From IMG/VR virus record IMGVR_UViG_2654587736_000008: a DNA stretch of 42,353 nucleotides; one strand, given 5' to 3'. Source of the DNA: a virus (Duplodnaviria > Heunggongvirae > Uroviricota > Caudoviricetes). Positions 15,995 to 24,793 of the stretch are shown in pieces; within the stretch, counting starts at the first letter, position 1, and the number at the start of each line of letters is the position of its first letter. The translations under genes were made by a program, and so were the position numbers. The notes beneath the pieces were generated by a model. That model saw only the letters and a program-made list of their open reading frames with translations. It had not been told where the DNA came from and made no database searches.

Positions 15995-17953
15995 TTACGC
16001 CGTACATTTCACCAGACCGCGGTGATCAACTGGCGCGACACCGGCGTCAATACGCACTTTCGTTGTCACGCCATCCACACTGAAGCCCTCCATCTGATCA
16101 ATATATGGCGTATCCACACCGTTGAGATAAGCCACTTCAATCGTATCGGAGCCTTTGGACGCAGCCAGGTAGAAAGTGGTCTGGCTGTTATCATCAAGAC
16201 GAGGCTCTGCAATAACGGTCGCAAAATCTTTCACCGGGTTAATAATACCGGCGTTAATGTCAGCCCCCTTGACACTTGAGGAGCGAATGACCTGGTTAGC
16301 AACAGACTCCATCGCCGTCGGTACCAGTACGAACGCAGGACGAATATTCAGATGACGCTCCCCCTCTTTCTGAACACGCATCAACTGGCGGGCTTTATCC
16401 AGCGATGCCACGTCCATTGCAGCGCTCTCCAGTACGTTTGCATGTTTCGCTTTATCGAACAGACTTACATTATCTGTGGAGATTTTCGGGTTAGACGTCA
16501 GAATGGCATAAACCAGATCGGCAATAGTGGATTTCGCCGCACGGCCCAGTTTCATCGGGACATCGGTCAGCATATTCAGATCATCATTGATAATGGCCTG
16601 ACGGGTGATACTGAACAGCTCGCCATAGGTCGCCAGTGCAATAGTGGCCTGTTTATCTCCGGTGGTGACGTATTTATATTCCGCCCCTTCACGCACCTGA
16701 CGCAGAGCACTGAAGCCCCCCATACCCACACGATGGGCAATTTTAAAATCAGACAACTGACCTTTCCGCGTCCACTGTTCATAGGTTTCAGGGGCATCTT
16801 CCCAGCCCTGCAGAATGGCTTTGTTCGCAACATCCAGCAGAATATTACCGAAGTCAGACGTACTGTGTGTGAACGCCGCACCGACCATCTGCATCGGGTT
16901 ATAACTGGAAACCCCAATCCCCCGTTCAGTCAGTGACATACGAGCATATTCACGCAGGGTCATCCCGTTGTAGACATTATCACGTTCGGTTTTTTCAAAT
17001 CCGGCACGCGCCATCAGCGCCTGGCGGATCCCGTCCCCCACAAAATTACCGTTACCGGCATAAATATGAGCCGGGGTATTTTTATTGGATGGCGTGGACT
17101 CGCGCCCCATCTCGTTCAACAGCTTTTCGCGGGCTTGCTCCAGCGAACATTCAGGATCGGCAAGACACTGAGCCTGCAGCGTCTGATAACGCCCGCCAAA
17201 CATGGCAAACAAATCATTAATACCGTTTACACGCGCTTTTTGCTCTGCCAGTACCTGCGCACGGATACTGTTTTCATCCACCACAGGTGCTGCTGCCTGC
17301 ACTGGCGTCCGGGAGGCTACAGGTTCATTATCCTGTACGCGTGGAGCACTGTTGCGTGGCGGAGTAATCATGTTTCGAATGGATTCCGGCATCTTTTTAA
17401 ATTCCTCTGTACGTTTTGACTGAATACATGCCATTGCCTTAACGGCTGGCGTTACCTGATCAGCAAATCCATGTGCCAGACATTCGGCACCGGACATCCA
17501 GGTCTCATCCGCCAGCATGGCAGCAATTTCATCGGTGGTTTTCCCGGTTTTCTGTGCATAAGCGGGTAACAGAACCGCCTCAACCTTATCGAGCAGGTCG
17601 GCATAGGTGCGCATGTCCTCCGCATCACCGCCCGTAAAGCCAAATGGTTTATGAATCATCATGAAGGTGTTTTCCGGCATAATGACCGGGTTTCCCACCA
17701 TCGCAATGACCGACGCCATTGACGCCGCCACACCGTCGACATAAACGGTAATGGACGCCCCATGTGTTTTCAGCGCATTAAAAATGGCGATGCCTTCAAA
17801 GACATCGCCACCCGGTGAATTAATATGGAGATTAATGTGGGTGATATCGCCCAGTGCATTCAGATCACTGATAAACTGCTTCGCTGTAACACCCCAGAAA
17901 CCAATCTCGTCATAAATATAAATATCCGCGTCACTCTGGTGACCAGCCTGCAT
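15995..17953 (-). CDS. Prohead protease (ClpP-like) fused to major capsid protein
   Basis: N-terminal ClpP-like domain (DIYIYDEIG, catalytic Ser in GVAASMAS, His in MMIHKP) continuous with a C-terminal HK97-fold-like capsid region; start uncertain (ATG 17953 chosen; ORF open to 18214). Confidence 0.75.
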   Translation of the reverse strand: MQAGHQSDADIYIYDEIGFWGVTAKQFISDLNALGDITHINLHINSPGGDVFEGIAIFNALKTHGASITVYVDGVAASMASVIAMVGNPVIMPENTFMMIHKPFGFTGGDAEDMRTYADLLDKVEAVLLPAYAQKTGKTTDEIAAMLADETWMSGAECLAHGFADQVTPAVKAMACIQSKRTEEFKKMPESIRNMITPPRNSAPRVQDNEPVASRTPVQAAAPVVDENSIRAQVLAEQKARVNGINDLFAMFGGRYQTLQAQCLADPECSLEQAREKLLNEMGRESTPSNKNTPAHIYAGNGNFVGDGIRQALMARAGFEKTERDNVYNGMTLREYARMSLTERGIGVSSYNPMQMVGAAFTHSTSDFGNILLDVANKAILQGWEDAPETYEQWTRKGQLSDFKIAHRVGMGGFSALRQVREGAEYKYVTTGDKQATIALATYGELFSITRQAIINDDLNMLTDVPMKLGRAAKSTIADLVYAILTSNPKISTDNVSLFDKAKHANVLESAAMDVASLDKARQLMRVQKEGERHLNIRPAFVLVPTAMESVANQVIRSSSVKGADINAGIINPVKDFATVIAEPRLDDNSQTTFYLAASKGSDTIEVAYLNGVDTPYIDQMEGFSVDGVTTKVRIDAGVAPVDHRGLVKCTA

Positions 17954-17966
17954 CCTGAACCAGGAA

Positions 17967-19475
17967 TTATTCTTCGGACTGGTCGTCGGTGTGCTGCGGC
18001 TCCTGTCGTTTCGTTGCGGCACTGCTGCCTCCTTTATCACTGGCCGGATCGGTATCAAATACCAGATCCAGCTTGCGGTTTTCATCAATTTCGGCCTTGC
18101 GCCGACGTTTGACATCATCCGGATTACGACCACCAGCACGTACCCAGTCTGATTCTGTCGCCGCTCCACCACGAATCTGGATTTTCCAGGCCTCAGCCTC
18201 CTTAACAGGGTCAATCCACGGCATCACCGGTCCGGAATACACCGCGGTATACAGTGAAGAACGGTCAAGATCGCGGGGTAGCCTGATAACACCGGATGCC
18301 ACAGCCTGTTTCAGCCAGGCACGATACATCGGGCGGGTGACGGCACCAATAAACCAGTCCTGCAGGATCAGGTAGCCATCAGTAGACTCAACCAGTTCCT
18401 GACGCTGGGCGCTGTAAGTGCCGTTATAGTTGCGTGCCGTACTGGAAAAACTCAGACGACTGCCCGCCGCCACGGCACGCAACTGACCATTACGAAAAGT
18501 TTCAAGGTTAGGATTGGGACGATCCGACTTCACCATTCCGATTTCTTCGCCGGGTTTCAGATCGTCGTAAATAATGCCTGGCTGAATGGTAAGCTCGCGT
18601 TCATTCTCCTTGCTGCCATTACCATCCGGTTCATAGCTCTGCCCGTCGCCTTTCCGGATGTACATCCCCAGAGCAGCGGCGATCCTTGCTGCAGTCAGCT
18701 CAGAATCTTCATACTCTTTCAGGGCACTGAGGCGGATCAGCACACCGGACAACAAAGACGTCCCGCGCATCTGGTGCAGACGGCGAACAAATTTAAGATG
18801 CAGCATTCGCTCTGCATCCACTTCTTTGGTTTCCATCTGCCGCCCGGATACGGGACGGCTTTTATACACCAGATATTTTTCGGGACGCCCCCAGTCATCA
18901 ACAAACACGCCCTGATTCAGCCTGTTGCTCTCATCACTGGTCATGGGAATAAAGTCCGGCTCGAGCGCCTCCAGCCAGAAATGAACACCGGCAGAAGGCG
19001 TCAGGCTGTTTATGCGCCCGGAAACCATCTGGGCAAACACCTCACCATCGCGCAGCCAGGTACGCAGCATCAGACGTTCCAGCATCGGACGGGTAAACTG
19101 CCCGGTGACTTCCGGACTGACAGACCATTCACTCCATCGGGTGCGTATCTCCGCTGCCAGATCACGGGCAATGGCCCCATTGCGTAATACCGGATGTGGC
19201 TCGACAATAATCCCGTTTTTCCCCACCACCCGTTCTTCCAGCTTGTCAAATACACCAATAACCAGATCGTGGTTGTTATCAAGGTAACGGGCCTGCTCAC
19301 GTAACGACACGGCCCCGTACTGGCTTAACTGGTCGGCAGTTCGGTTCTCCCGCCGGGCTTTGTGTGTCCGCGTCGTTTTTACGGCCTCATAAGCCTGGAT
19401 CACCGCACGGGAACGCAGCCTTGCCGCTTTCCATCCTGGTGAAAAAACGCCAATCACATCATCAAGAATTGCCAT
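17967..19475 (-). CDS. B: Portal protein (lambda gpB-like)
   Basis: Start MAILDDVIGVFSPGW at ATG 19475 overlapping the W stop; about 500 aa. Confidence 0.85.
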   Translation of the reverse strand: MAILDDVIGVFSPGWKAARLRSRAVIQAYEAVKTTRTHKARRENRTADQLSQYGAVSLREQARYLDNNHDLVIGVFDKLEERVVGKNGIIVEPHPVLRNGAIARDLAAEIRTRWSEWSVSPEVTGQFTRPMLERLMLRTWLRDGEVFAQMVSGRINSLTPSAGVHFWLEALEPDFIPMTSDESNRLNQGVFVDDWGRPEKYLVYKSRPVSGRQMETKEVDAERMLHLKFVRRLHQMRGTSLLSGVLIRLSALKEYEDSELTAARIAAALGMYIRKGDGQSYEPDGNGSKENERELTIQPGIIYDDLKPGEEIGMVKSDRPNPNLETFRNGQLRAVAAGSRLSFSSTARNYNGTYSAQRQELVESTDGYLILQDWFIGAVTRPMYRAWLKQAVASGVIRLPRDLDRSSLYTAVYSGPVMPWIDPVKEAEAWKIQIRGGAATESDWVRAGGRNPDDVKRRRKAEIDENRKLDLVFDTDPASDKGGSSAATKRQEPQHTDDQSEE

Positions 19476-19687
19476 CAGAACCTCGCCAGCCGGTACCCGG
19501 GATGCCCCCGTCGTCGTGTAATCAGAGCCGCAAGGCGGCGCTCCCACTCCTGCCGTCCCTGCCGGATCTCAGATAAGTTTTCCATGGTCATCTGCTGACC
19601 ATTAAAGGTGACGGATTTTCCGTCCAGCACCGCCATTTCAGCTTCCGTATAACGCTGAATCATGGCTTCGATATCATTCTGGTTCAT
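19475..19687 (-). CDS. W: Head-tail connector protein W
   Basis: gpW-like small protein ending RRRGHPGYRLARF; ATG at 19687 overlaps the terminase stop (ATGA). Confidence 0.75.
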   Translation of the reverse strand: MNQNDIEAMIQRYTEAEMAVLDGKSVTFNGQQMTMENLSEIRQGRQEWERRLAALITRRRGHPGYRLARF

Positions 19688-21786
19688 AACCATCCTCCGG
19701 AAGTCAGCCAGGGGTTAACATCGTCAGTTACTGTTTTCTTCCGTTTTTGTTTTTTAACAGGCGTGGATACCGGTTCCGGTGAGGGTGACGGTTCGGTACT
19801 GTCCGGGACACACTCCAGCCAGGTTTCCCGGCTCGCCCACTCCGGTGCATCCGGCCAGCGGATCTTTTCGTATCCATGCAGAATGACCAGAGCCTCGGCA
19901 TACACCATCAGGTCAAAAGCTTCGTTGGCACCGCGACCCGGCTTACTCCATTTCCCGTCACTGCTCCGCTCTTCATACGTCAGTTCGTCGTAAAACCAGC
20001 TCCCCAGCCAGTCAGGGAAATGCACATAGCCGGGACCTGGCGAGTCACGCCATAACGCGTTATTCACCCGGTCTTTCAGGGCATCCGTCTGAAGAAGCCA
20101 GAGCGGTACATCACCTGCGGCCTGCGCCCGTCGGCCCGTTCGTCCGGTGTTATCAGGGAATGTACGGGTGATCAGTTTTGCGCGCCGGATGCTGTCGCCC
20201 TTAAACAGGTAAATACGTTTACCAAGGCCATCACGACGGCAACGACGCCAGAATTTATAGGCATTATCAGTGACCCCGTCTTCACCGCCGGAGTCCACCG
20301 CCATTGCCATCAGTCGCATTTGTTGAGAAGGATCGGAGGCCAGCGGCCAGCTTTTATGAAAAACATCCGTCAGCAGGACATCCCAGTCTTCCGGATAACT
20401 GGCCGGATCAATTCGCTGGCTCTCCCCGTCGCTGTCACCGCGCAATGACTGCGTGATGTTGTAACGATCAATAATCCAGCGTTCGCCACGGCTGCCATAG
20501 CCCGTTACCTGAACCACAAAACGGCGATGACGTCCCGCCTGCACATCCACTGTCGCCACAAGGAAATTAACGCCATCCGGCACACTGCGGGAAGGAACTG
20601 GCTCTGCCCGCTGCTCAAGCAGTTCACTTTTTCGTTGCTCCATGCTGGCGCGGGGAAGATAAGGTAATCCCCAGTCGGTATTGATAACCGTCTTGAGTGT
20701 TTCTTCACTTCCGGTTGTCTCGTATTCCTGTTCTGCAGTAAGCAGTTTGTAAACGAGTTGCGAGAGTGTCTGGTAAGCAGCTGCCGGACCCTCCATCCAG
20801 AATGACGCAATACGTGAGCGTCGGGGATCACCATAACGACTGCCATCCGCATTGATGGATTCACCATCCCGCAGCCAGACCCCACGTCCGTTCAGCTCAC
20901 GTTTTTGTTCAGGCATAATCCGTCCTGAACAGGAAGGACACTGAATATAAGCCGCCTCACTTGCCAGCACGGGATCGGCAATATCACGGAAACCAGCAAC
21001 CACATCGCCGCAGGGCTGAAAATACTCACCACAGTGTGGACAGGGCCAGTACCAGCGACGGCGATCGCCACGGTTATAGAGCGACAGTATCCCAGTGGTT
21101 GGTGGAGCCTCATGCGGTGAAGTCCGTCGCCATTTCACATCCTTCACATCCCTGCCGGGGGAACTCTCCACCAGCGTCATACCACTGGACATAAATGTTG
21201 TGGTACGTTTTGAGGCAAGAGAGAAAGCATCCCCCTCGCCATCAATATCTTCCGGAAAACGGTCATAATCCGTCAGCGCGACGCATTTATAATCTGATGA
21301 GGACATGATATTGACTGACGGCCAGCCGATTTTCAGGTAGTTGCCAGCAAGGAATGTTCTGTCATAAACGTTGTTGTCATTTTTGTTCGGACTCAGGCGA
21401 CTGACCACTTCCGGGCTGACGCGAAACGTTCTGGCGAGTCGTTTTTTGGAGTGTTCGCGGGCTTTTTCCTCCGTCATCTGAATGATCAGCATATCCGCAG
21501 GGTCGCAAATCACGTTGTAAATCACCCAGCCGTCAATCAGGCCGATAGTCTTGCCGGTTCGTGCCGGGCCAACAAATATCACTGCGTCGTATTCACGCGA
21601 GGCCAGGCAGTTCATCGGCTCAATAACATACGGTGCCACCAGCGGATCCCACGGGACTGAGTTCCCTGCCCCCATGGGCACCCGCATATACTGAGCAACG
21701 GCATCAGCAACCCGCATTCGTCTCGGTGCGCGAAGGATATAACCTGAATCGGTTCGTGCTGCCTTTGCGGTTTCCTGATTCAGCAT
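19684..21786 (-). CDS. A: Terminase large subunit (lambda gpA-like)
   Basis: 700 aa; Walker A-like VGPARTGKT; collinear with lambda A. Confidence 0.9.
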   Translation of the reverse strand: MLNQETAKAARTDSGYILRAPRRMRVADAVAQYMRVPMGAGNSVPWDPLVAPYVIEPMNCLASREYDAVIFVGPARTGKTIGLIDGWVIYNVICDPADMLIIQMTEEKAREHSKKRLARTFRVSPEVVSRLSPNKNDNNVYDRTFLAGNYLKIGWPSVNIMSSSDYKCVALTDYDRFPEDIDGEGDAFSLASKRTTTFMSSGMTLVESSPGRDVKDVKWRRTSPHEAPPTTGILSLYNRGDRRRWYWPCPHCGEYFQPCGDVVAGFRDIADPVLASEAAYIQCPSCSGRIMPEQKRELNGRGVWLRDGESINADGSRYGDPRRSRIASFWMEGPAAAYQTLSQLVYKLLTAEQEYETTGSEETLKTVINTDWGLPYLPRASMEQRKSELLEQRAEPVPSRSVPDGVNFLVATVDVQAGRHRRFVVQVTGYGSRGERWIIDRYNITQSLRGDSDGESQRIDPASYPEDWDVLLTDVFHKSWPLASDPSQQMRLMAMAVDSGGEDGVTDNAYKFWRRCRRDGLGKRIYLFKGDSIRRAKLITRTFPDNTGRTGRRAQAAGDVPLWLLQTDALKDRVNNALWRDSPGPGYVHFPDWLGSWFYDELTYEERSSDGKWSKPGRGANEAFDLMVYAEALVILHGYEKIRWPDAPEWASRETWLECVPDSTEPSPSPEPVSTPVKKQKRKKTVTDDVNPWLTSGGWL

Positions 21787-22277
21787 TACTCCTCCTGCTG
21801 TAATTCCTCCTCATCATCCGCACCTGCTTCGGTCACCCGCAGGGCTATCTGATCGCGCAGATCATCAATAATGGACTGAACACGGCTCACAGCGGCAGGC
21901 TGCAGGCCGCAGTCACGTTCCAGAATATCCGGTAATGTCTCCAGCACCTGCACGACCGCTTTTGCCCAGATGGCAAACTCCCGTCTGACATCACTGGCCG
22001 GAATGAGTTGTGCCGTTTCCTGTTCGAACTTAAGACGCTCACGTTCAGACTGATACCAGGCTTTGCGTTCATGTGGATCCATTTCGCCCTCAGCAACCGG
22101 CGGTGGTAACCCCATAAATTCAGTCAGAATATCGGTCAACCGGTATAGCTTGAGTTTGTCATGTCCACCAGCGGGACGAATGTTTTTCAGTCTTGCCACG
22201 ACAGTCTGGCGGTGCAGACCAGATAAAGCCGCCAGTTGATTAATATTCAGCACCAGGTTTTTCAACTCATGATCCAT
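21786..22277 (-). CDS. Terminase small subunit (Nu1-like)
   Basis: 163 aa; N-terminal wHTH (LNINQLAALSGLHRQTVVARLKN); acidic C-terminus; SD GGAGG. Confidence 0.8.
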   Translation of the reverse strand: MDHELKNLVLNINQLAALSGLHRQTVVARLKNIRPAGGHDKLKLYRLTDILTEFMGLPPPVAEGEMDPHERKAWYQSERERLKFEQETAQLIPASDVRREFAIWAKAVVQVLETLPDILERDCGLQPAAVSRVQSIIDDLRDQIALRVTEAGADDEEELQQEE

Positions 22278-22289
22278 ATTTCCTCCGGA

Positions 22290-22470
22290 GAGCTTTAAAC
22301 ATGCATCGTGCGAACAACTTTAAGAAAACGCGTTCGATGTCGAACAAAAAACACTCAATTCGACATGCAAAAAACAAATAACCATTAATAATCAATAAGA
22401 TGCAAAGATGATGGTGGCCAATAAAAATGCAAAAACTAGCCTTTTTCCGCGACGCTCCCGCCCCGTGGCA
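22290..22470 (-). other. Candidate cos site: cosB-like repeats (22300-22376) and cosN-like GC-rich element (22447-22466)
   Basis: Minus strand reads GGGGCGGGAGCGTCGCGG, resembling lambda cosN GGGCGGCGACCTCGCGG, about 170 bp upstream of Nu1; TCGAACA/TCGACAT motif occurs three times between. Confidence 0.5.
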
Positions 22471-22519
22471 GGCCACCCCACCGGGAGGACCCGTCAGCCT
22501 GACAGCCATGACGAACGTC

Positions 22520-22795
22520 TTATACAGCCCTTGCATGAATGGCATCGGGATAATCCAGAAAGGAATAGCATCGACCCACAAGAATCTGTGTGAGTGTCCT
22601 GTTTCTTCCACCCCCGCACAGGACTGGCGAGCATGAGGGACAACCTCGCGAACCATAACCGCGCTGATGACAGGACTGGCCCGGCTTGTATTGCTTCCAG
22701 CCTTCGCTTTTGTGGCTTTTGCAATAGCCTGACGGATCTGTGGTGGTATGGCGGCAGCCGCGAACTCGGCATGCTTTTGAGGTTCGAGGGAGCAT
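22520..22795 (-). CDS. Cys-rich small ORF with HNH-endonuclease-like N-terminus; possibly a degraded gene
   Basis: MLPRTSKACRVRGCRHTTTDPSGYCKSHKSEGWKQYKPG...HQRGYGSR pattern; the downstream part does not continue the expected HNH motifs in any single frame. Confidence 0.3.
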   Translation of the reverse strand: MLPRTSKACRVRGCRHTTTDPSGYCKSHKSEGWKQYKPGQSCHQRGYGSRGCPSCSPVLCGGGRNRTLTQILVGRCYSFLDYPDAIHARAV

Positions 22796-22910
22796 ATGTA
22801 CTCCAATGAAGAAGCCACCGACATAGTCTCCTCCATTCGTCGTGAAACTATTTTCATCTACCCAGTAATGAACTCTTTGAAGAGTTGTAATCAATACAAC
22901 TCGCTAATGG

Positions 22911-22934
22911 AGAGGCTTGTCTCACACGTGAGAC
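22911..22934. repeat. Perfect 24-bp palindrome / hairpin (GCTTGTCTCACACGTGAGACAAGC)
   Basis: 10-bp arms around a CACG centre, in the intergenic region between the lysis and packaging modules. Confidence 0.6.
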
Positions 22935-23289
22935 AAGCTTCCTGTTTGATTTACTGGACACTATAGAAGGACAGAATGCCTTCCTCACTCGAATCACATC
23001 AATTAAGGAGGTTCAACATGTTTCATTCCACAAGTCATCAGGCTGTAATTATGGCAGCATCAGTTTGTGCCACAGACCTTTTCCGCTTCACTTTGAGCCT
23101 GATTCATTTCTACCTGACCGGCTCGCCTCTATCTTTCTAATCCCCGATTTATCCAAATTTCACTGCCATAATGCCGACATTCTCTGCCATTGTTGGCTCC
23201 GTTTATCCGTTAAAAGGGATATCAGTTAAGTTATCCCGTGCAGGGTATAAGCCATTATCAAACCCACCCGTAGATAGGCTTTGTAATGG

Positions 23290-23808
23290 CTACTTCTTCA
23301 GAAATGATTCGATGAATTCACGTCGAGGATGACGATAGTTCAGAATATCTTCTGGCATCCTCATAAAGCGGTTGTTGCCGTCTTTGGCAGTAACAAAACA
23401 GCTGTGAACTCCGCAGACATCCGTTTTGATCGTGTCGCTATACTCAAAAAGCAACTGAGCCATCTTCTCTTGCCATTCTGGAGGCATAGCCTCCATGAAT
23501 ACTCGCGGCATCACGCAGAACGACGCATGCGTAAGACCAAACCACAGTTGCAGGTCTTTACGATATTCTTCATCCATCGTCTTTACCTTTGTTGCAATAA
23601 AAAGCCCCGCGAATGCGAGGCTAAATCCTAGTGTTTGTGATGACTGGCTCTTATCTAAACGCAGCCCCTTACCGCGCGCCAAATGCTCAACTTTAAGCAT
23701 CAGCAATGAGATGTTTAATCTGGATTCACTCCAGAAGTGATCACCACCCTGTCTACAGAGCCAGATGTGAAGGATGATGAGTAAAATTATCTCTATCATC
23801 GAAGGCAT
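23290..23808 (-). CDS. Hypothetical protein in the bor position (moron candidate), N-terminal hydrophobic segment
   Basis: 172-aa ORF after Rz; relatively AT-rich; no recognisable family. Confidence 0.45.
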
Positions 23809-24263
23809 TGCGTCCTGATATATTCCTGAAGCGTTCTCAGTGCTGTCTGGTCTCTGATGATTCCGTCCCGGATACCGAGAACGTTTCGTCCAGCAACTGG
23901 AGAGAGTTCGACGGTGGCATCATTGCCCATGCCGGAGGCGCTGGAGGTTTCGGCTGAGGATGGCACAGAGCATTTTCCTTTGACGAGCACCCGACCACCA
24001 TTATCAAGCTTGCGCCGAAGAGCATCATTTTTAGCTTTCGCATCAGCCAACTCCTTCGTGTATTTAGCATCGAGTACATCAGCAGCACGCTGGCGTTGCT
24101 GCATGTCAGTAATGGTGGCGGTCGCCTGCTTCAGCTCACTGACTTTTTTATCACGCTGTTCTTTGTAGGCGATGGCGTTATCACGGTAATGATTGACCGC
24201 CCACGACAGGCAGACGATGGTGCAGATAACCAGAGTATAAATAATCGCTGCGACTCTGCTCAC
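23796..24263 (-). CDS. Rz: Spanin inner-membrane subunit Rz (i-spanin)
   Basis: N-terminal TM ([19 protein letters not shown]), coiled-coil body, C-terminal Cys; GTG start overlapping endolysin stop (TTG at 24278 also possible). Confidence 0.8.
23837..24043 (-). CDS. Rz1: Spanin outer-membrane lipoprotein Rz1 (o-spanin), embedded in Rz in the +1 frame
   Basis: [21 protein letters not shown] lipobox followed by Pro-rich [11 protein letters not shown]. Confidence 0.8.
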
Positions 24264-24793
24264 TGATCTATCCCCCAACAGGCTAATGCGCTTTCCTGGT
24301 CACGACGAATAACCTGTCCATAGCAGTTATTTGAACGTATGCGGCAATCGCGCCCACCATCTTTTATCCACCAGCGAATCGCCTCGCATGCGCCCTTACG
24401 ATCACCGGCATTCAGCCGCTTATAAAACGTCGACGGGAAACACTTACCGGGGCCAATGTTATAGGGACAGAATGACGCTATACCCGCTTTCTGTGGTTCG
24501 GTCAGTGGTACTTTAATATTGCGCTCTACCCATGCCAGCGCCTTATCACGTTCAATAGCGTTAACCTGGTCGCATTTTTCCTTCGACAGCTTCATTCCCG
24601 GTATGACGGGCTTACCATCCACCATTGTGGCACCCCGACAGATGGTCCAGATGCCGGCCCCATCGCGGTATGCCGTTGTGTGGTTACCTTCTTTTTCATC
24701 CAGAAACTGGTCGAGAATATCAGGCGCGGGCGCACCGACGGCAATCAGTGCCAGAACGGCAGCCGACAGGCCGTATCTGATTTTTGCGTTCAT
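24260..24793 (-). CDS. R: SAR endolysin (T4-lysozyme-like, GH24)
   Basis: 177 aa; N-terminal signal-anchor-release-like segment ([16 protein letters not shown]), then lysozyme-like body resembling phage 21 R. Confidence 0.8.

What the first reader, a model, noticed from the sequence alone, without database searches (positions are those of the whole stretch)
22290..22470. Candidate cos site with lambda-like cosN and distinct cosB repeats
About 170 bp upstream of Nu1 the minus strand reads GGGGCGGGAGCGTCGCGG, similar to lambda cosN (GGGCGGCGACCTCGCGG). Between it and Nu1 the motif TCGAACA/TCGACAT occurs three times, including the palindrome GTTCGATGTCGAAC at 22332-22345, unlike lambda R sites. 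That would fit a different small-subunit DNA specificity.
Basis: partly seen in the sequence, partly recalled or inferred. Interest (0 to 1): 0.4.

Follow-up and report, generated by a model that had tools for sequence, protein, structure and literature searches.

The report
Lambda-type cos site of a prophage
This is the DNA-packaging (cos) site of a very common lambda-like E. coli prophage: the cutting site is almost the same as lambda's, while the anchoring sites have a different sequence that matches a different small terminase subunit. It is an ordinary but well-resolved feature.

Summary
The window's minus strand reads GGGGCGGGAGCGTCGCGG at 22464..22447, and TTCGACAT-type motifs lie between it and the small terminase gene (ATG 22277).

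- **Cohesive end.** The 12 nt GGGCGGGAGCGT (22463..22452) is exactly where the deposited genomes of phages cdtI and Tritos begin. It differs by one base from the Gifsy-1 cohesive end.
- **cosQ.** A lambda cosQ heptamer, GGGTCCT, lies at -29..-23 (22492..22486).
- **cosB.** It has lambda's architecture, R3 – IHF site – inverted R2 – R1, with unrelated box sequences: R3 GCCACCAT 22418..22411, IHF-like site 22390-22402, R2 22359-22366, R1 22344..22337. Its third motif is not part of the set.
- **Family evidence.** Across about 60 distinct loci encoding the same TerS family (Pfam DUF1441, a remote Nu1 relative with a winged helix-turn-helix), the three boxes keep their positions. They change together (CAT/CAC/CAG), in step with TerS residue 13 and wing length.
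- **Terminase.** TerL belongs to the gpA family.

Virion ends were not mapped for this phage. This is a new member of a known kind, of low to moderate interest.

The parts
22486..22492 (-). cosQ-like heptamer GGGTCCT at -29..-23 from the predicted top-strand nick. In lambda this element is the packaging-termination signal.
   Evidence: It is identical to the heptamer at -30..-24 of lambda's right end. GGGTCC is present at -28/-29 in 28 of 60 distinct family loci.
22450..22465 (-). cosN core: CG | GGGCGGGAGCGT | CG. The predicted nicks lie between 22464/22463 on the minus strand and between 22452/22451 on the plus strand, giving a 12-nt 5' overhang GGGCGGGAGCGT (22463..22452).
   Evidence: The cdtI and Tritos records start at this base with the same 33 nt. 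The yong2 record is opened exactly after the 12-mer. LLS carries an annotated (inferred) 12-nt cohesive end at the homologous place. The core has 8/16 two-fold symmetry against 10/16 in lambda.
22420..22446 (-). A/T-tract spacer AAAAAGGCTAGTTTTTGCATTTTTAT (+18..+44), in the position of lambda's I2.
   Evidence: It is nearly invariant across the family (consensus AAAACGGCTAGTTTTT). Lambda's I2 spans bp 18-50 and is rich in poly-dA/dT (PMC4856287).
22407..22419 (-). R3-like TerS box GGCCACCATCATC (core GCCACCAT, 22418..22411; +46..+53).
   Evidence: The position matches lambda R3 (bp 50-65) and N15 R3 (bp 48-60). It is invariant in 22 distinct close relatives. A box of the same kind occupies this position in all family loci and covaries with R2 and R1.
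22390..22402 (+). IHF-like site AATCAATAAGATG (12/13 match to WATCAANNNNTTR), between R3 and R2. It is the equivalent of lambda's I1.
   Evidence: 33 of 60 family loci have a match with at most 1 mismatch in +56..+100, nearly all at +61..+65 on the same strand. Shuffles give 4.2 expected.
22359..22366 (+). R2-like TerS box TTCGACAT, inverted relative to R3 and R1 (+98..+105).
   Evidence: Exact inverted repeat with R1. It is conserved as (G)ATGTCGAA across the family and changes in concert with R1 and R3.
22332..22345 (-). R1-like TerS box GTTCGACATCGAAC (core TTCGACAT, 22344..22337; +120..+127).
   Evidence: It aligns with GTTCAYCATCATG of relatives, where it overlaps the terS ATG, and with GTTCGACACTGAAC of Gifsy-2.
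22278..22331 (-). terS leader. It is not an R box; its function is unknown.
   Evidence: It is conserved in three cosB types without covarying. It is absent from most family members, whose R1 abuts the ATG.
21786..22277 (-). [quoted passage not shown]
   Evidence: Pfam E=4.6e-44. PHROG 141 E=2.7e-77, with a cross-hit to lambda Nu1's PHROG 57 at 8e-9. AlphaFold2 model. Best viral fold matches are terminase small subunits, E=3e-7.
19684..21786 (-). terL, the large terminase subunit (700 aa), gpA family. It is the predicted enzyme that nicks cosN.
   Evidence: Pfam GpA_ATPase and GpA_nuclease. 88% identical to cdtI TerL, which shares the same cosN. 25% identical to lambda gpA.

Best explanation
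Window 22278-22492 is the complete cos site of a lambda-like, 5'-cohesive-end prophage whose late operon runs on the minus strand. Everything below is sequence-based inference; nothing here was tested biochemically.

**Proposed mechanism**
1. Dimers of the small terminase subunit (a DUF1441-type winged helix-turn-helix protein) bind R3 (GCCACCAT, 22418..22411) and the inverted R2 (22359-22366). They do so across a bend made by IHF at 22390-22402. R1 (22344..22337) is an accessory site.
2. This anchors the gpA-type large subunit on cosN. The large subunit nicks the two strands 12 bp apart, between 22464/22463 on the minus strand and between 22452/22451 on the plus strand.
3. The nicks leave 5' overhangs GGGCGGGAGCGT.
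4. DNA is then packaged towards terS/terL, that is, towards lower window coordinates.
5. At the next cos of the concatemer, cosQ (GGGTCCT, 22492..22486) together with cosN terminates packaging.

**Specificity.** cosN and cosQ follow TerL and are lambda-like. cosB follows TerS and has its own sequence.
For: **Position and sequence**
- The cosN string is the best lambda-cosN match in the window. It lies 186 bp upstream of the terS ATG; in lambda the distance is 190 bp.
- The cdtI and Tritos records begin at exactly this base, with 33 identical nt, and end in ...CCACG.
- The yong2 record (TerS of the same family) ends with its 12-mer and starts with CGCGG. It is therefore opened at the other predicted nick.
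- LLS (TerS 63% identical) carries an annotated, inferred 12-nt cohesive end at the homologous spot. Its nanopore reads did not cross cos (PMC12315714).
- The Gifsy-1 end GGGCGGCAGCGT differs by one base (PMC4669245).
- The cosQ heptamer is identical to lambda's, one bp closer to the nick.

**Proteins**
- TerL has the GpA ATPase and nuclease domains.
- It is 88% identical to cdtI TerL, which shares the same cosN although the two TerS proteins share only 42% identity.
- TerS is PHROG 141 'terminase small subunit'. Cross-hits with lambda Nu1's PHROG 57 are reciprocal (8e-9 and 6e-8).
- The model shows a beta-alpha-alpha-beta-beta-alpha winged HTH at residues 9-55.
- Fold matches are to viral small terminase subunits (E=3e-7) and to MerR-like/Rpp winged HTH domains.

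**Comparative evidence for cosB**
- About 60 distinct loci from Enterobacterales, Pasteurellaceae, Marinobacter and Psychromonas show the same order at fixed distances.
- The three boxes change together. Examples:
  - window: GCCACCAT / TTCGACAT / TTCGACAT
  - L009: GTCATCAC / ATCGACAC / TTCATCAC
  - Gifsy-2: GTCAGCACTGA / TTCGACACTGA / TTCGACACTGA
  - L048: GTGCAGCA / TTGCAGCA / GTGCAGCG
  - L120: R2 and R1 both ..AACATA

- The CAT or CAC state tracks TerS residue 13 and wing length. CAT goes with N13 in 27 of 28 scorable loci and with the wing G-x3-[KR]LKL[YF]. CAC goes with S/T at 13 and a one-residue-longer wing ..[ST]NL[KR]...
- Among close relatives, R3, the IHF core and R2 are invariant or nearly so, while the spacers between them vary.

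**Function in living phages.** Phages PhiR40_1, PhiR47_1 and PhiR55_1 carry an identical TerS and a 98.6% identical cos region.
Against: - No virion-end mapping or TerS binding data exist for this phage or, as far as I could find, for any DUF1441-type TerS.
- The ends of the cdtI and Tritos records may have been set by analogy with lambda. The cdtI paper (PMC1964815) is not held, and the Tritos paper does not describe end mapping.
- The window's R3 matches R1 and R2 at only 5 of 8 core positions.
- R1 varies within one close clade (TTCATCAC / TTCATCGC / TTCACCAC).
- Covariation counts are not corrected for shared ancestry. I count at least 3-4 independent concerted changes.
- The IHF site has one mismatch.
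- cosN two-fold symmetry is weaker than in lambda (8/16 against 10/16).
Confidence: 0.85

Rival explanations
1. cosN is real, but the TTCGACAT inverted repeat and palindrome act at the RNA or transcription level, as a leader hairpin or weak intrinsic terminator/attenuator in front of terS, rather than as TerS binding sites.
For: - The scan calls a terminator-like site on the minus strand at 22346..22331: a 6-bp stem, a 4-nt loop, then CGTTTTCTT.
- The R2/R1 inverted repeat pairs in the RNA minimum-free-energy fold.
Against: - The fold is not better than shuffles (z = -1.66; 13 of 200 shuffles fold at least as well).
- In most relatives R1 is not palindromic, has no T-run and overlaps the start codon. 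The box is conserved nonetheless.
- A hairpin model does not explain why R3, about 70 bp away and in direct orientation, changes in concert with R2 and R1, or why the changes track the TerS DNA-binding domain.
Confidence: 0.07
2. The site is a decayed or non-functional relic in a defective prophage, and the resemblance to cos is historical only.
For: - The window carries a truncated HNH gene remnant and a mosaic junction just upstream of the site.
- No annotation exists for the site in any of 2,166 E. coli genomes that hold it.
Against: - cosQ, cosN, R3, the IHF core and R2 are invariant or nearly so among 22 distinct close relatives, while DNA upstream of cosQ is highly variable.
- Plaque-forming or induced phages PhiR40_1, PhiR47_1 and PhiR55_1 have a 100% identical TerS and a 98.6% identical cos.
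- terS, terL, portal and head genes are intact ORFs.
Confidence: 0.05
3. The phage packages by a headful (pac) mechanism, and the GC-rich string is a chance match to lambda cosN.
For: The lambda-cosN resemblance alone is reached somewhere in 3 of 100 random windows.
Against: - TerL is of the gpA family, which goes with 5' cohesive ends (PMC12315714).
- The string is identical to deposited genome ends.
- cosQ is present at the right distance.
- The string sits at the lambda-like distance from terS and is conserved family-wide.
Confidence: 0.02

Closest known systems
Bacteriophage lambda cos (cosQ - cosN - I2 - R3 - I1 - R2 - R1; Feiss laboratory)
   Same: - The order, orientations (R2 inverted) and distances of all sub-sites.
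- The cosQ heptamer GGGTCCT.
- The left half of the 12-nt end (GGGCGG) and the flanking CG/CG.
- A gpA-type TerL.
- A TerS with an N-terminal winged HTH.
- terS starts about 190 bp from the end.
   Different: [quoted passage not shown]
- The R boxes have no sequence similarity to lambda's CGTTTCC-type R sequences.
- R1 lies 22 bp from R2, against about 50 bp in lambda.
- TerS has no BLASTP similarity to Nu1. Only profile-level and fold-level similarity is seen.
- TerL is 25% identical to gpA.
Phages cdtI (AB285204) and Tritos (OV696610), left genome end
   Same: - The first 33 nt of the genome, including the 12-nt end, are identical apart from one A/G difference in cdtI.
- TerL is 88% identical.
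- The DNA upstream, including the cosQ region, is related.
   Different: - From about +40 the cosB sequence diverges completely; the R3-position box is GGCGGCGGCA.
- TerS is only 42% identical, with recognition helix HRDTVKKRL instead of HRQTVVARL.
Salmonella phage Gifsy-1 cos (cohesive end GGGCGGCAGCGT; R3-I1-R2-R1 by sequence analysis, Feiss laboratory)
   Same: - The cohesive end differs by a single base (position 7).
- The tripartite cosB layout is the same.
   Different: - Gifsy-1 TerS is a true Nu1/gp1 homologue.
- Its R boxes are lambda/21-like (..GATCCGTTCTTC..), not TTCGACAT-like.
Phages with the same DUF1441-type TerS: mEp460, mEp213/LLS, mEp043, Gifsy-2, Fels-1, VT1-Sakai, Hafnia yong2
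   Same: - The same TerS family (44-87% identity).
- The same cos layout.
- For LLS and mEp213 a putative 12-nt end GGGCGGCGCGCT has been inferred (PMC12315714).
   Different: - Box sequences differ by clade: CATCATCAT / TTCGACATC / TTCACCATC in LLS and yong2, and ..CACTGA in Gifsy-2.
- Most lack the 55-nt leader between R1 and the ATG.
- I found no published description of cosB for this family.
Phage N15 and PICI cos sites (simple cosB with R3 only)
   Same: The R3-position box at about +45..+60 is the most constant element. Haemophilus relatives appear to have only this box.
   Different: The window has the full tripartite cosB with an IHF-like site.

Membership tests
Lambda-like cohesive-end site (12-nt 5' overhang; cosQ-cosN-cosB) | A 12-bp cosN related to GGGCGGCGACCT, with a conserved left half and CG flanking both nick positions. 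| tested here: met
   CG|GGGCGGGAGCGT|CG at 22465..22450. Positions 1-6 and 10 and 12 match lambda. Variation confined to the right half is the known natural pattern (PMC4669245).
Lambda-like cohesive-end site (12-nt 5' overhang; cosQ-cosN-cosB) | Partial two-fold rotational symmetry of cosN. | tested here: met
   8 of 16 bp are symmetric, and 12 of 22 bp. The same count reproduces lambda's published 10 of 16. The symmetry is weaker than in lambda.
Lambda-like cohesive-end site (12-nt 5' overhang; cosQ-cosN-cosB) | cosQ heptamer about 30 bp upstream of the nick. | tested here: met
   GGGTCCT at -29..-23 (22492..22486); in lambda it is at -30..-24.
Lambda-like cohesive-end site (12-nt 5' overhang; cosQ-cosN-cosB) | cosB lies between cosN and terS, with three related boxes R3, R2 (inverted) and R1, and R3 at about bp 48-65. 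| tested here: met
   Boxes at +46..+53, +98..+105 (inverted) and +120..+127. Positions are conserved and changes are concerted across about 60 loci. Binding itself was not tested.
Lambda-like cohesive-end site (12-nt 5' overhang; cosQ-cosN-cosB) | IHF site between R3 and R2. | tested here: inconclusive
   A 12/13 match to WATCAANNNNTTR at 22390-22402. 33 of 60 family loci have a match with at most 1 mismatch in +56..+100, against 4.2 expected. This is a consensus match only.
Lambda-like cohesive-end site (12-nt 5' overhang; cosQ-cosN-cosB) | A large terminase subunit of the gpA family encoded next to the site. | tested here: met
   PF05876 (E=8.5e-72) and PF20454 (E=1.1e-85).
Lambda-like cohesive-end site (12-nt 5' overhang; cosQ-cosN-cosB) | Virion DNA ends with complementary 12-nt 5' overhangs at this position. 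| not testable with these tools
   Only indirect evidence is available. The cdtI, Tritos and LLS records start at +1, and the yong2 record starts at +13 and ends at +12. How the depositors set these ends could not be verified.
Nu1-type small terminase subunit (lambda Nu1 / phage 21 gp1; PHROG 57) | Significant sequence match to Nu1. | tested here: inconclusive
   BLASTP finds nothing and Pfam assigns DUF1441. Cross-hits between PHROG 141 and PHROG 57 are reciprocal, at 8e-9 and 6e-8 over nearly the full length. hhalign aligns the winged HTH regions weakly (E=0.013). I read this as a remote homologue, not a member in the strict sense.
Nu1-type small terminase subunit (lambda Nu1 / phage 21 gp1; PHROG 57) | [quoted passage not shown] | tested here: met
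   AlphaFold2 model: strand 9-11, helices 12-19 and 23-32, wing 37-46, helix 47-55, then long helices; mean pLDDT 79. Viral fold hits to small terminase subunits reach E=3e-7. PDB hits to MerR-type and Rpp-complex winged HTH domains are only weak, E>=0.15.
Lambda packaging specificity (lambda R sequences) | R boxes resemble lambda R3/R2/R1 (CGTTTCC(T/G)TTCT). | tested here: not met
   The boxes are GCCACCAT / TTCGACAT / TTCGACAT. No lambda R-like sequence occurs in 22278-22450.

The most novel reading that the evidence does not exclude
The DUF1441-type small terminases and their cos sites form a natural, previously undescribed specificity series.
- The three R boxes have been re-written in concert several times (core ..CAT, ..CAC, ..CAG, and CGACAT to CAACAT).
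- These changes accompany defined changes in the winged HTH: residue 13 N against S/T, a one-residue change in wing length, and recognition helix HRQT against NRN.
- The termination signal cosQ exists in two forms, GGGTCC and GGTACT, at the same distance from the nick.

If real, this gives a directly testable recognition code for small terminase - cosB pairing and for TerL - cosQ recognition. It would also explain packaging incompatibility among the very common E. coli and Salmonella prophages of this type.
Probability: 0.5. Interest if true: 0.45.

Novelty: new member of a known kind. Interest (0 to 1): 0.27.

Why it matters
- **Scale of the annotation gap.** Part of this cos region is present in 2,166 of 5,426 complete E. 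coli genomes, and it is never annotated.
- **Practical value.** Knowing the exact ends and the TerS boxes lets one orient and annotate these prophage genomes. It also helps predict which co-resident prophages or satellites can be packaged by which terminase, and helps design cosmid-like vectors or transduction assays for them.
- **Value for packaging research.** The family-wide co-variation of boxes and TerS residues offers a ready-made set of natural specificity variants for testing how a lambda-type small terminase reads DNA.

Tried and rejected
- **BLASTP of TerS against lambda Nu1:** no alignment.
- **Profile search of the TerS alignment against PDB sequences:** only noise, E>=0.1.
- **Foldseek of the full-length model against PDB:** no hit below E=0.15. 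MerR-type winged HTH domains and the Rpp/TerS complex 6hn7 appear only as weak matches.
- **hhalign against a two-sequence Nu1 alignment:** a weak match only.
rejected as an R box. It is conserved in three cosB types without co-varying, and it is absent from most of the family.
- **Terminator or RNA-hairpin reading of the palindrome:** rejected.
- **Promoter scan of 22200-23000:** nothing found.
- **Literature:**
  - The cdtI paper (PMC1964815) is not held.
  - The Tritos paper says nothing about its ends.
  - Vahanian et al. 2017, the cosN survey, is not held; it is known to me only through citations.
  - The string GGGCGGGAGCGT appears in no phage paper of the library.
- **Pooled conservation plot of close relatives:** uninformative until the sequences were split by cosB type. 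Invariance of R1 within the 'window type' is partly by construction, because I selected those sequences on the R1 string.

Full report
**1. What is in the sequence**

The window's minus strand carries a lambda-type late operon. In order, it contains:
- the lysis genes: a lysozyme (24793..24260) and an Rz-like ORF (24278..23796);
- a gap;
- a 163-aa ORF at 22277..21786, assigned to Pfam DUF1441 (E=4.6e-44) and PHROG 141 'terminase small subunit' (E=2.7e-77);
- a 700-aa gpA-family large terminase at 21786..19684 (GpA_ATPase and GpA_nuclease);
- a lambda-family portal;
- a fused protease-coat gene.

The palindrome GTTCGATGTCGAAC is at 22332-22345. The exact 8-mer TTCGACAT occurs three times in the whole window, and two of these form an inverted pair at 22337-22344 (-) and 22359-22366 (+).

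**2. Is the cosN resemblance more than chance?**

With flanks, the site matches lambda's nick region at 16 of 20 positions, the best match in the window. However, 3 of 100 random windows reach that level somewhere, so position and outside evidence have to decide.
- The deposited genomes of phage cdtI (AB285204) and phage Tritos (OV696610) begin at base 1 with GGGCGGGAGCGTCGCGGAAAAAGGCTAGTTTTT. This is exactly window 22463 downward. They end with ...CTGCCACG, exactly as the window reads upstream of 22463.
- Hafnia phage yong2 has a TerS of the same family. Its record ends with its own 12-mer and starts with CGCGG, so it is opened at the other predicted nick.
- Phage LLS (TerS 63% identical) carries an annotated 12-nt '5' extended cohesive site' GGGCGGCGCGCT at the homologous position. 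Its authors inferred it by analogy with mEp213, and they report that their virion-DNA reads did not cross cos (PMC12315714).
- The Gifsy-1 end, taken from the record and described by the Feiss laboratory as differing from lambda at positions 8, 9 and 11, is GGGCGGCAGCGT. That is one base from the window's (PMC4669245).
- I could not verify how the cdtI and Tritos ends were determined.

**3. The rest of the cos site**

Aligning the window with the lambda cos junction shows lambda's cosQ heptamer GGGTCCT at -29..-23 (22492..22486). In lambda it is at -30..-24.

Downstream of cosN comes an A/T-tract segment, AAAAAGGCTAGTTTTTGCATTTTTAT, at the position of lambda's I2. After that come three related boxes arranged as in lambda's cosB:

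| Element | Sequence | Window coordinates | Distance from end |
|---|---|---|---|
| R3 | GCCACCAT (extended GGCCACCATCATC) | 22418..22411 | +46..+53 |
| IHF-like site | AATCAATAAGATG (12/13 to consensus) | 22390-22402 (+) | between R3 and R2 |
| R2 (inverted) | TTCGACAT | 22359-22366 (+) | +98..+105 |
| R1 | TTCGACAT within GTTCGACATCGAAC | 22344..22337 | +120..+127 |

The terS ATG is at +187; lambda's Nu1 ATG is at +191. For comparison, lambda R3 spans bp 50-65 and N15 R3 spans bp 48-60, with the order R3-I1-R2-R1 and R2 inverted (PMC9026076).

**4. Comparative evidence**

A scan of one genome per species found 66 loci encoding relatives of this TerS, at 38-99% identity. They come from Enterobacterales, Pasteurellaceae, Marinobacter, Psychromonas and others. 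About 60 distinct upstream regions show the same plan:
- a cosQ-like element at -27..-30;
- CCACG | 12 nt with a conserved GGG(C)GG left half and a variable right half | CGCGG;
- AAAACGGCTAGTTTTT;
- a box at about +45..+58;
- in Enterobacterales, an IHF consensus at +61..+65 on one strand (33 of 60 loci with at most 1 mismatch, against 4.2 expected from shuffles);
- an inverted box (G)ATGTCGAA;
- a direct box GTTCAYCATCATG, which in most members overlaps the terS start codon.

The three boxes change together between clades:

| Clade | R3 | R2 (reverse complement) | R1 |
|---|---|---|---|
| Majority | GTCATCAT | TTCGACAT | TTCACCAT |
| L009-L016 | GTCATCAC | ATCGACAC | TTCATCAC |
| Gifsy-2 | GTCAGCACTGA | TTCGACACTGA | TTCGACACTGA |
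| L044 / L048 | GTGCAGCA | TTGCAGCA | GTGCAGCG |
| Viral contig L120 | (not compared) | ..AACATA | ..AACATA |

The window (CAT type) and L009-L011 (CAC type) have TerS proteins 87% identical, yet they differ at the same motif position in all three boxes.

The box state also tracks the TerS DNA-binding domain:
- CAT-type loci have N at residue 13 (27 of 28) and the wing G-x3-[KR]LKL[YF].
- CAC-type loci have S or T at residue 13 and a wing one residue longer (..[ST]NL[KR]..).
- CAG-type loci have NRN instead of HRQ in the recognition helix.

Among close relatives split by type, cosQ, cosN, the A/T segment, R3, the IHF core and R2 are invariant or nearly so. The R3-IHF and IHF-R2 spacers and everything upstream of cosQ vary. 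These counts are not corrected for shared ancestry. I count at least three or four independent concerted changes.

**5. The proteins fit the model**

- TerL is 88% identical to cdtI TerL. The two share cosN and the cosQ region, while their TerS proteins share only 42% identity and cosB diverges from about +40. This is the expected split: cosN and cosQ go with TerL, and cosB goes with TerS.
- TerS shows no BLASTP similarity to lambda Nu1.
- TerS and Nu1 nevertheless cross-hit each other's PHROG families over nearly their whole lengths (8e-9 and 6e-8).
- hhalign aligns LNINQLAALSGLHRQTVVARLK..AGGHD.KLKLY with Nu1's VNKKQLADIFGASIRTIQNWQE..GGGKGNEVLY (weak).
- An AlphaFold2 model (mean pLDDT 79) has a winged helix-turn-helix at residues 9-55 followed by long helices.
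- Its best matches among viral models are small terminase subunits (E=3e-7), then MerR-like, excisionase and Rpp winged HTH domains.
- PDB matches are of the same kind but not significant.
- Gifsy-1, whose tripartite cosB the Feiss laboratory has described, has a true Nu1-type TerS. The published analyses I could read therefore do not cover the DUF1441 family.

**6.

This is a cos site with a lambda-like cosN and a cosB of different sequence that fits a different small-subunit specificity. The refinements are:
The motif (GCGAACA, 22310-22316) lies in a 55-nt leader that is conserved in three cosB types without co-varying, and most of the family lacks that leader.
- The likely critical site R3, the IHF-like site and cosQ were missed.
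- 'Nu1' is a remote relative, not a family member.

**7. Rivals**

- An RNA hairpin or weak terminator reading of the palindrome is not supported by folding statistics or by conservation.
- A dead relic is unlikely. Invariance is site-specific, and phages PhiR40_1, PhiR47_1 and PhiR55_1 share this TerS (100%) and this cos (98.6%).
- Headful packaging is contradicted by the gpA-type TerL and by all of the above.

**8. Novelty and interest**

Lambda-type cos architecture, natural variation in the right half of cosN, and tripartite cosB in many lambda-like phages are all established (PMC4669245, PMC9026076). The 12-nt end is already implicit in the cdtI record. What is new here is limited:
- the assignment for this very common, never-annotated prophage type (2,166 of 5,426 complete E. 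coli genomes hold at least part of the region);
- the description of the box set for DUF1441-type TerS and its co-variation with the protein.

I rate it a new member of a known kind, of low to moderate interest. All mechanistic statements are inferences from sequence. Virion-end mapping and TerS footprinting would settle them.

Noticed in passing
window 22649-22900 (minus strand); ORF 22894..22520: This stretch is 87% identical to the 5' part of the HNH endonuclease gene of Shigella phages SfIV/SfI/SfV and Salmonella ST64B (phrog_144 HNH, E=7e-10). The match stops at about 22650. From about 22663 down to cos, the DNA is the mEp460/PhiR40-type pre-cos segment. I read this as a truncated HNH remnant and a mosaic junction about 190 bp upstream of cosN.
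   Followed up: partly
window 22486-22492 and loci L008-L072, about 27-30 bp upstream of the predicted nick: The cosQ-like element comes in two forms at the same distance from the nick. GGGTCC is in 28 of 60 distinct loci, including the window. GGTACT is in 25 of 60, including Gifsy-2, Pasteurellaceae and Psychromonas. Marinobacter has GGGACCC or GGGGCCC. The Feiss laboratory wrote that natural variation in cosQ is not apparent (PMC4669245).
   Followed up: partly
window 22278-22331 (minus strand): The leader between R1 and the terS ATG is conserved in three cosB types without co-varying: GTTC(G/A)CA(C/A)GATGCATGTTTAAA. It contains a 3-codon mini-ORF ATG CAT GTT TAA (22306..22295) upstream of the Shine-Dalgarno sequence GGAGG (22286..22282). 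Most family members lack this leader. Its function is unexplained.
   Followed up: partly
loci L017-L061, LLS (L154), yong2 (L155): last 13 nt before and including the terS ATG: In most family members the R1 box GTTCAYCATCATGG contains the terS start codon, and no obvious Shine-Dalgarno sequence precedes it. TerS bound at R1 would therefore sit on its own translation start region in the DNA.
   Followed up: no
loci L043-L060 (Pasteurellaceae): cosB is much shorter here (88-133 bp from end to ATG) and has no IHF consensus. Some loci have the inverted box directly next to R3, for example GGCATCATCATCTTGTGATGATG in L049. Haemophilus loci show only the R3-position box, which resembles the simple cosB of N15.
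   Followed up: no
window 22912-22941 (+ strand): A strong terminator-like hairpin (13-bp stem, 4-nt loop) lies on the strand opposite to the late operon, just upstream of the HNH remnant.
   Followed up: no
window 15995-18214 (minus strand): A 739-aa ORF matches both head maturation protease and major head protein families (phrog_133, phrog_4523). This looks like a fused protease-coat gene, as reported for Gifsy-2 and mEp213-type heads (PMC12315714).
   Followed up: no
window 22278-22500: This cos region has a match in 2,166 of 5,426 complete E. coli genomes. 1,413 genomes hold at least 80% of it, and there are up to 7 places per genome. No annotated feature lies under any listed match.
   Followed up: partly
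LR595868.1 (mEp460_4F5), bases 1-30 (L156): The record starts CCACGGGGCGGGAGCGCGGAAAAAGG. It lacks 3 nt (TCG) at the right edge of the 12-mer compared with all relatives. This is possibly an assembly artefact at the physical ends of virion DNA.
   Followed up: no
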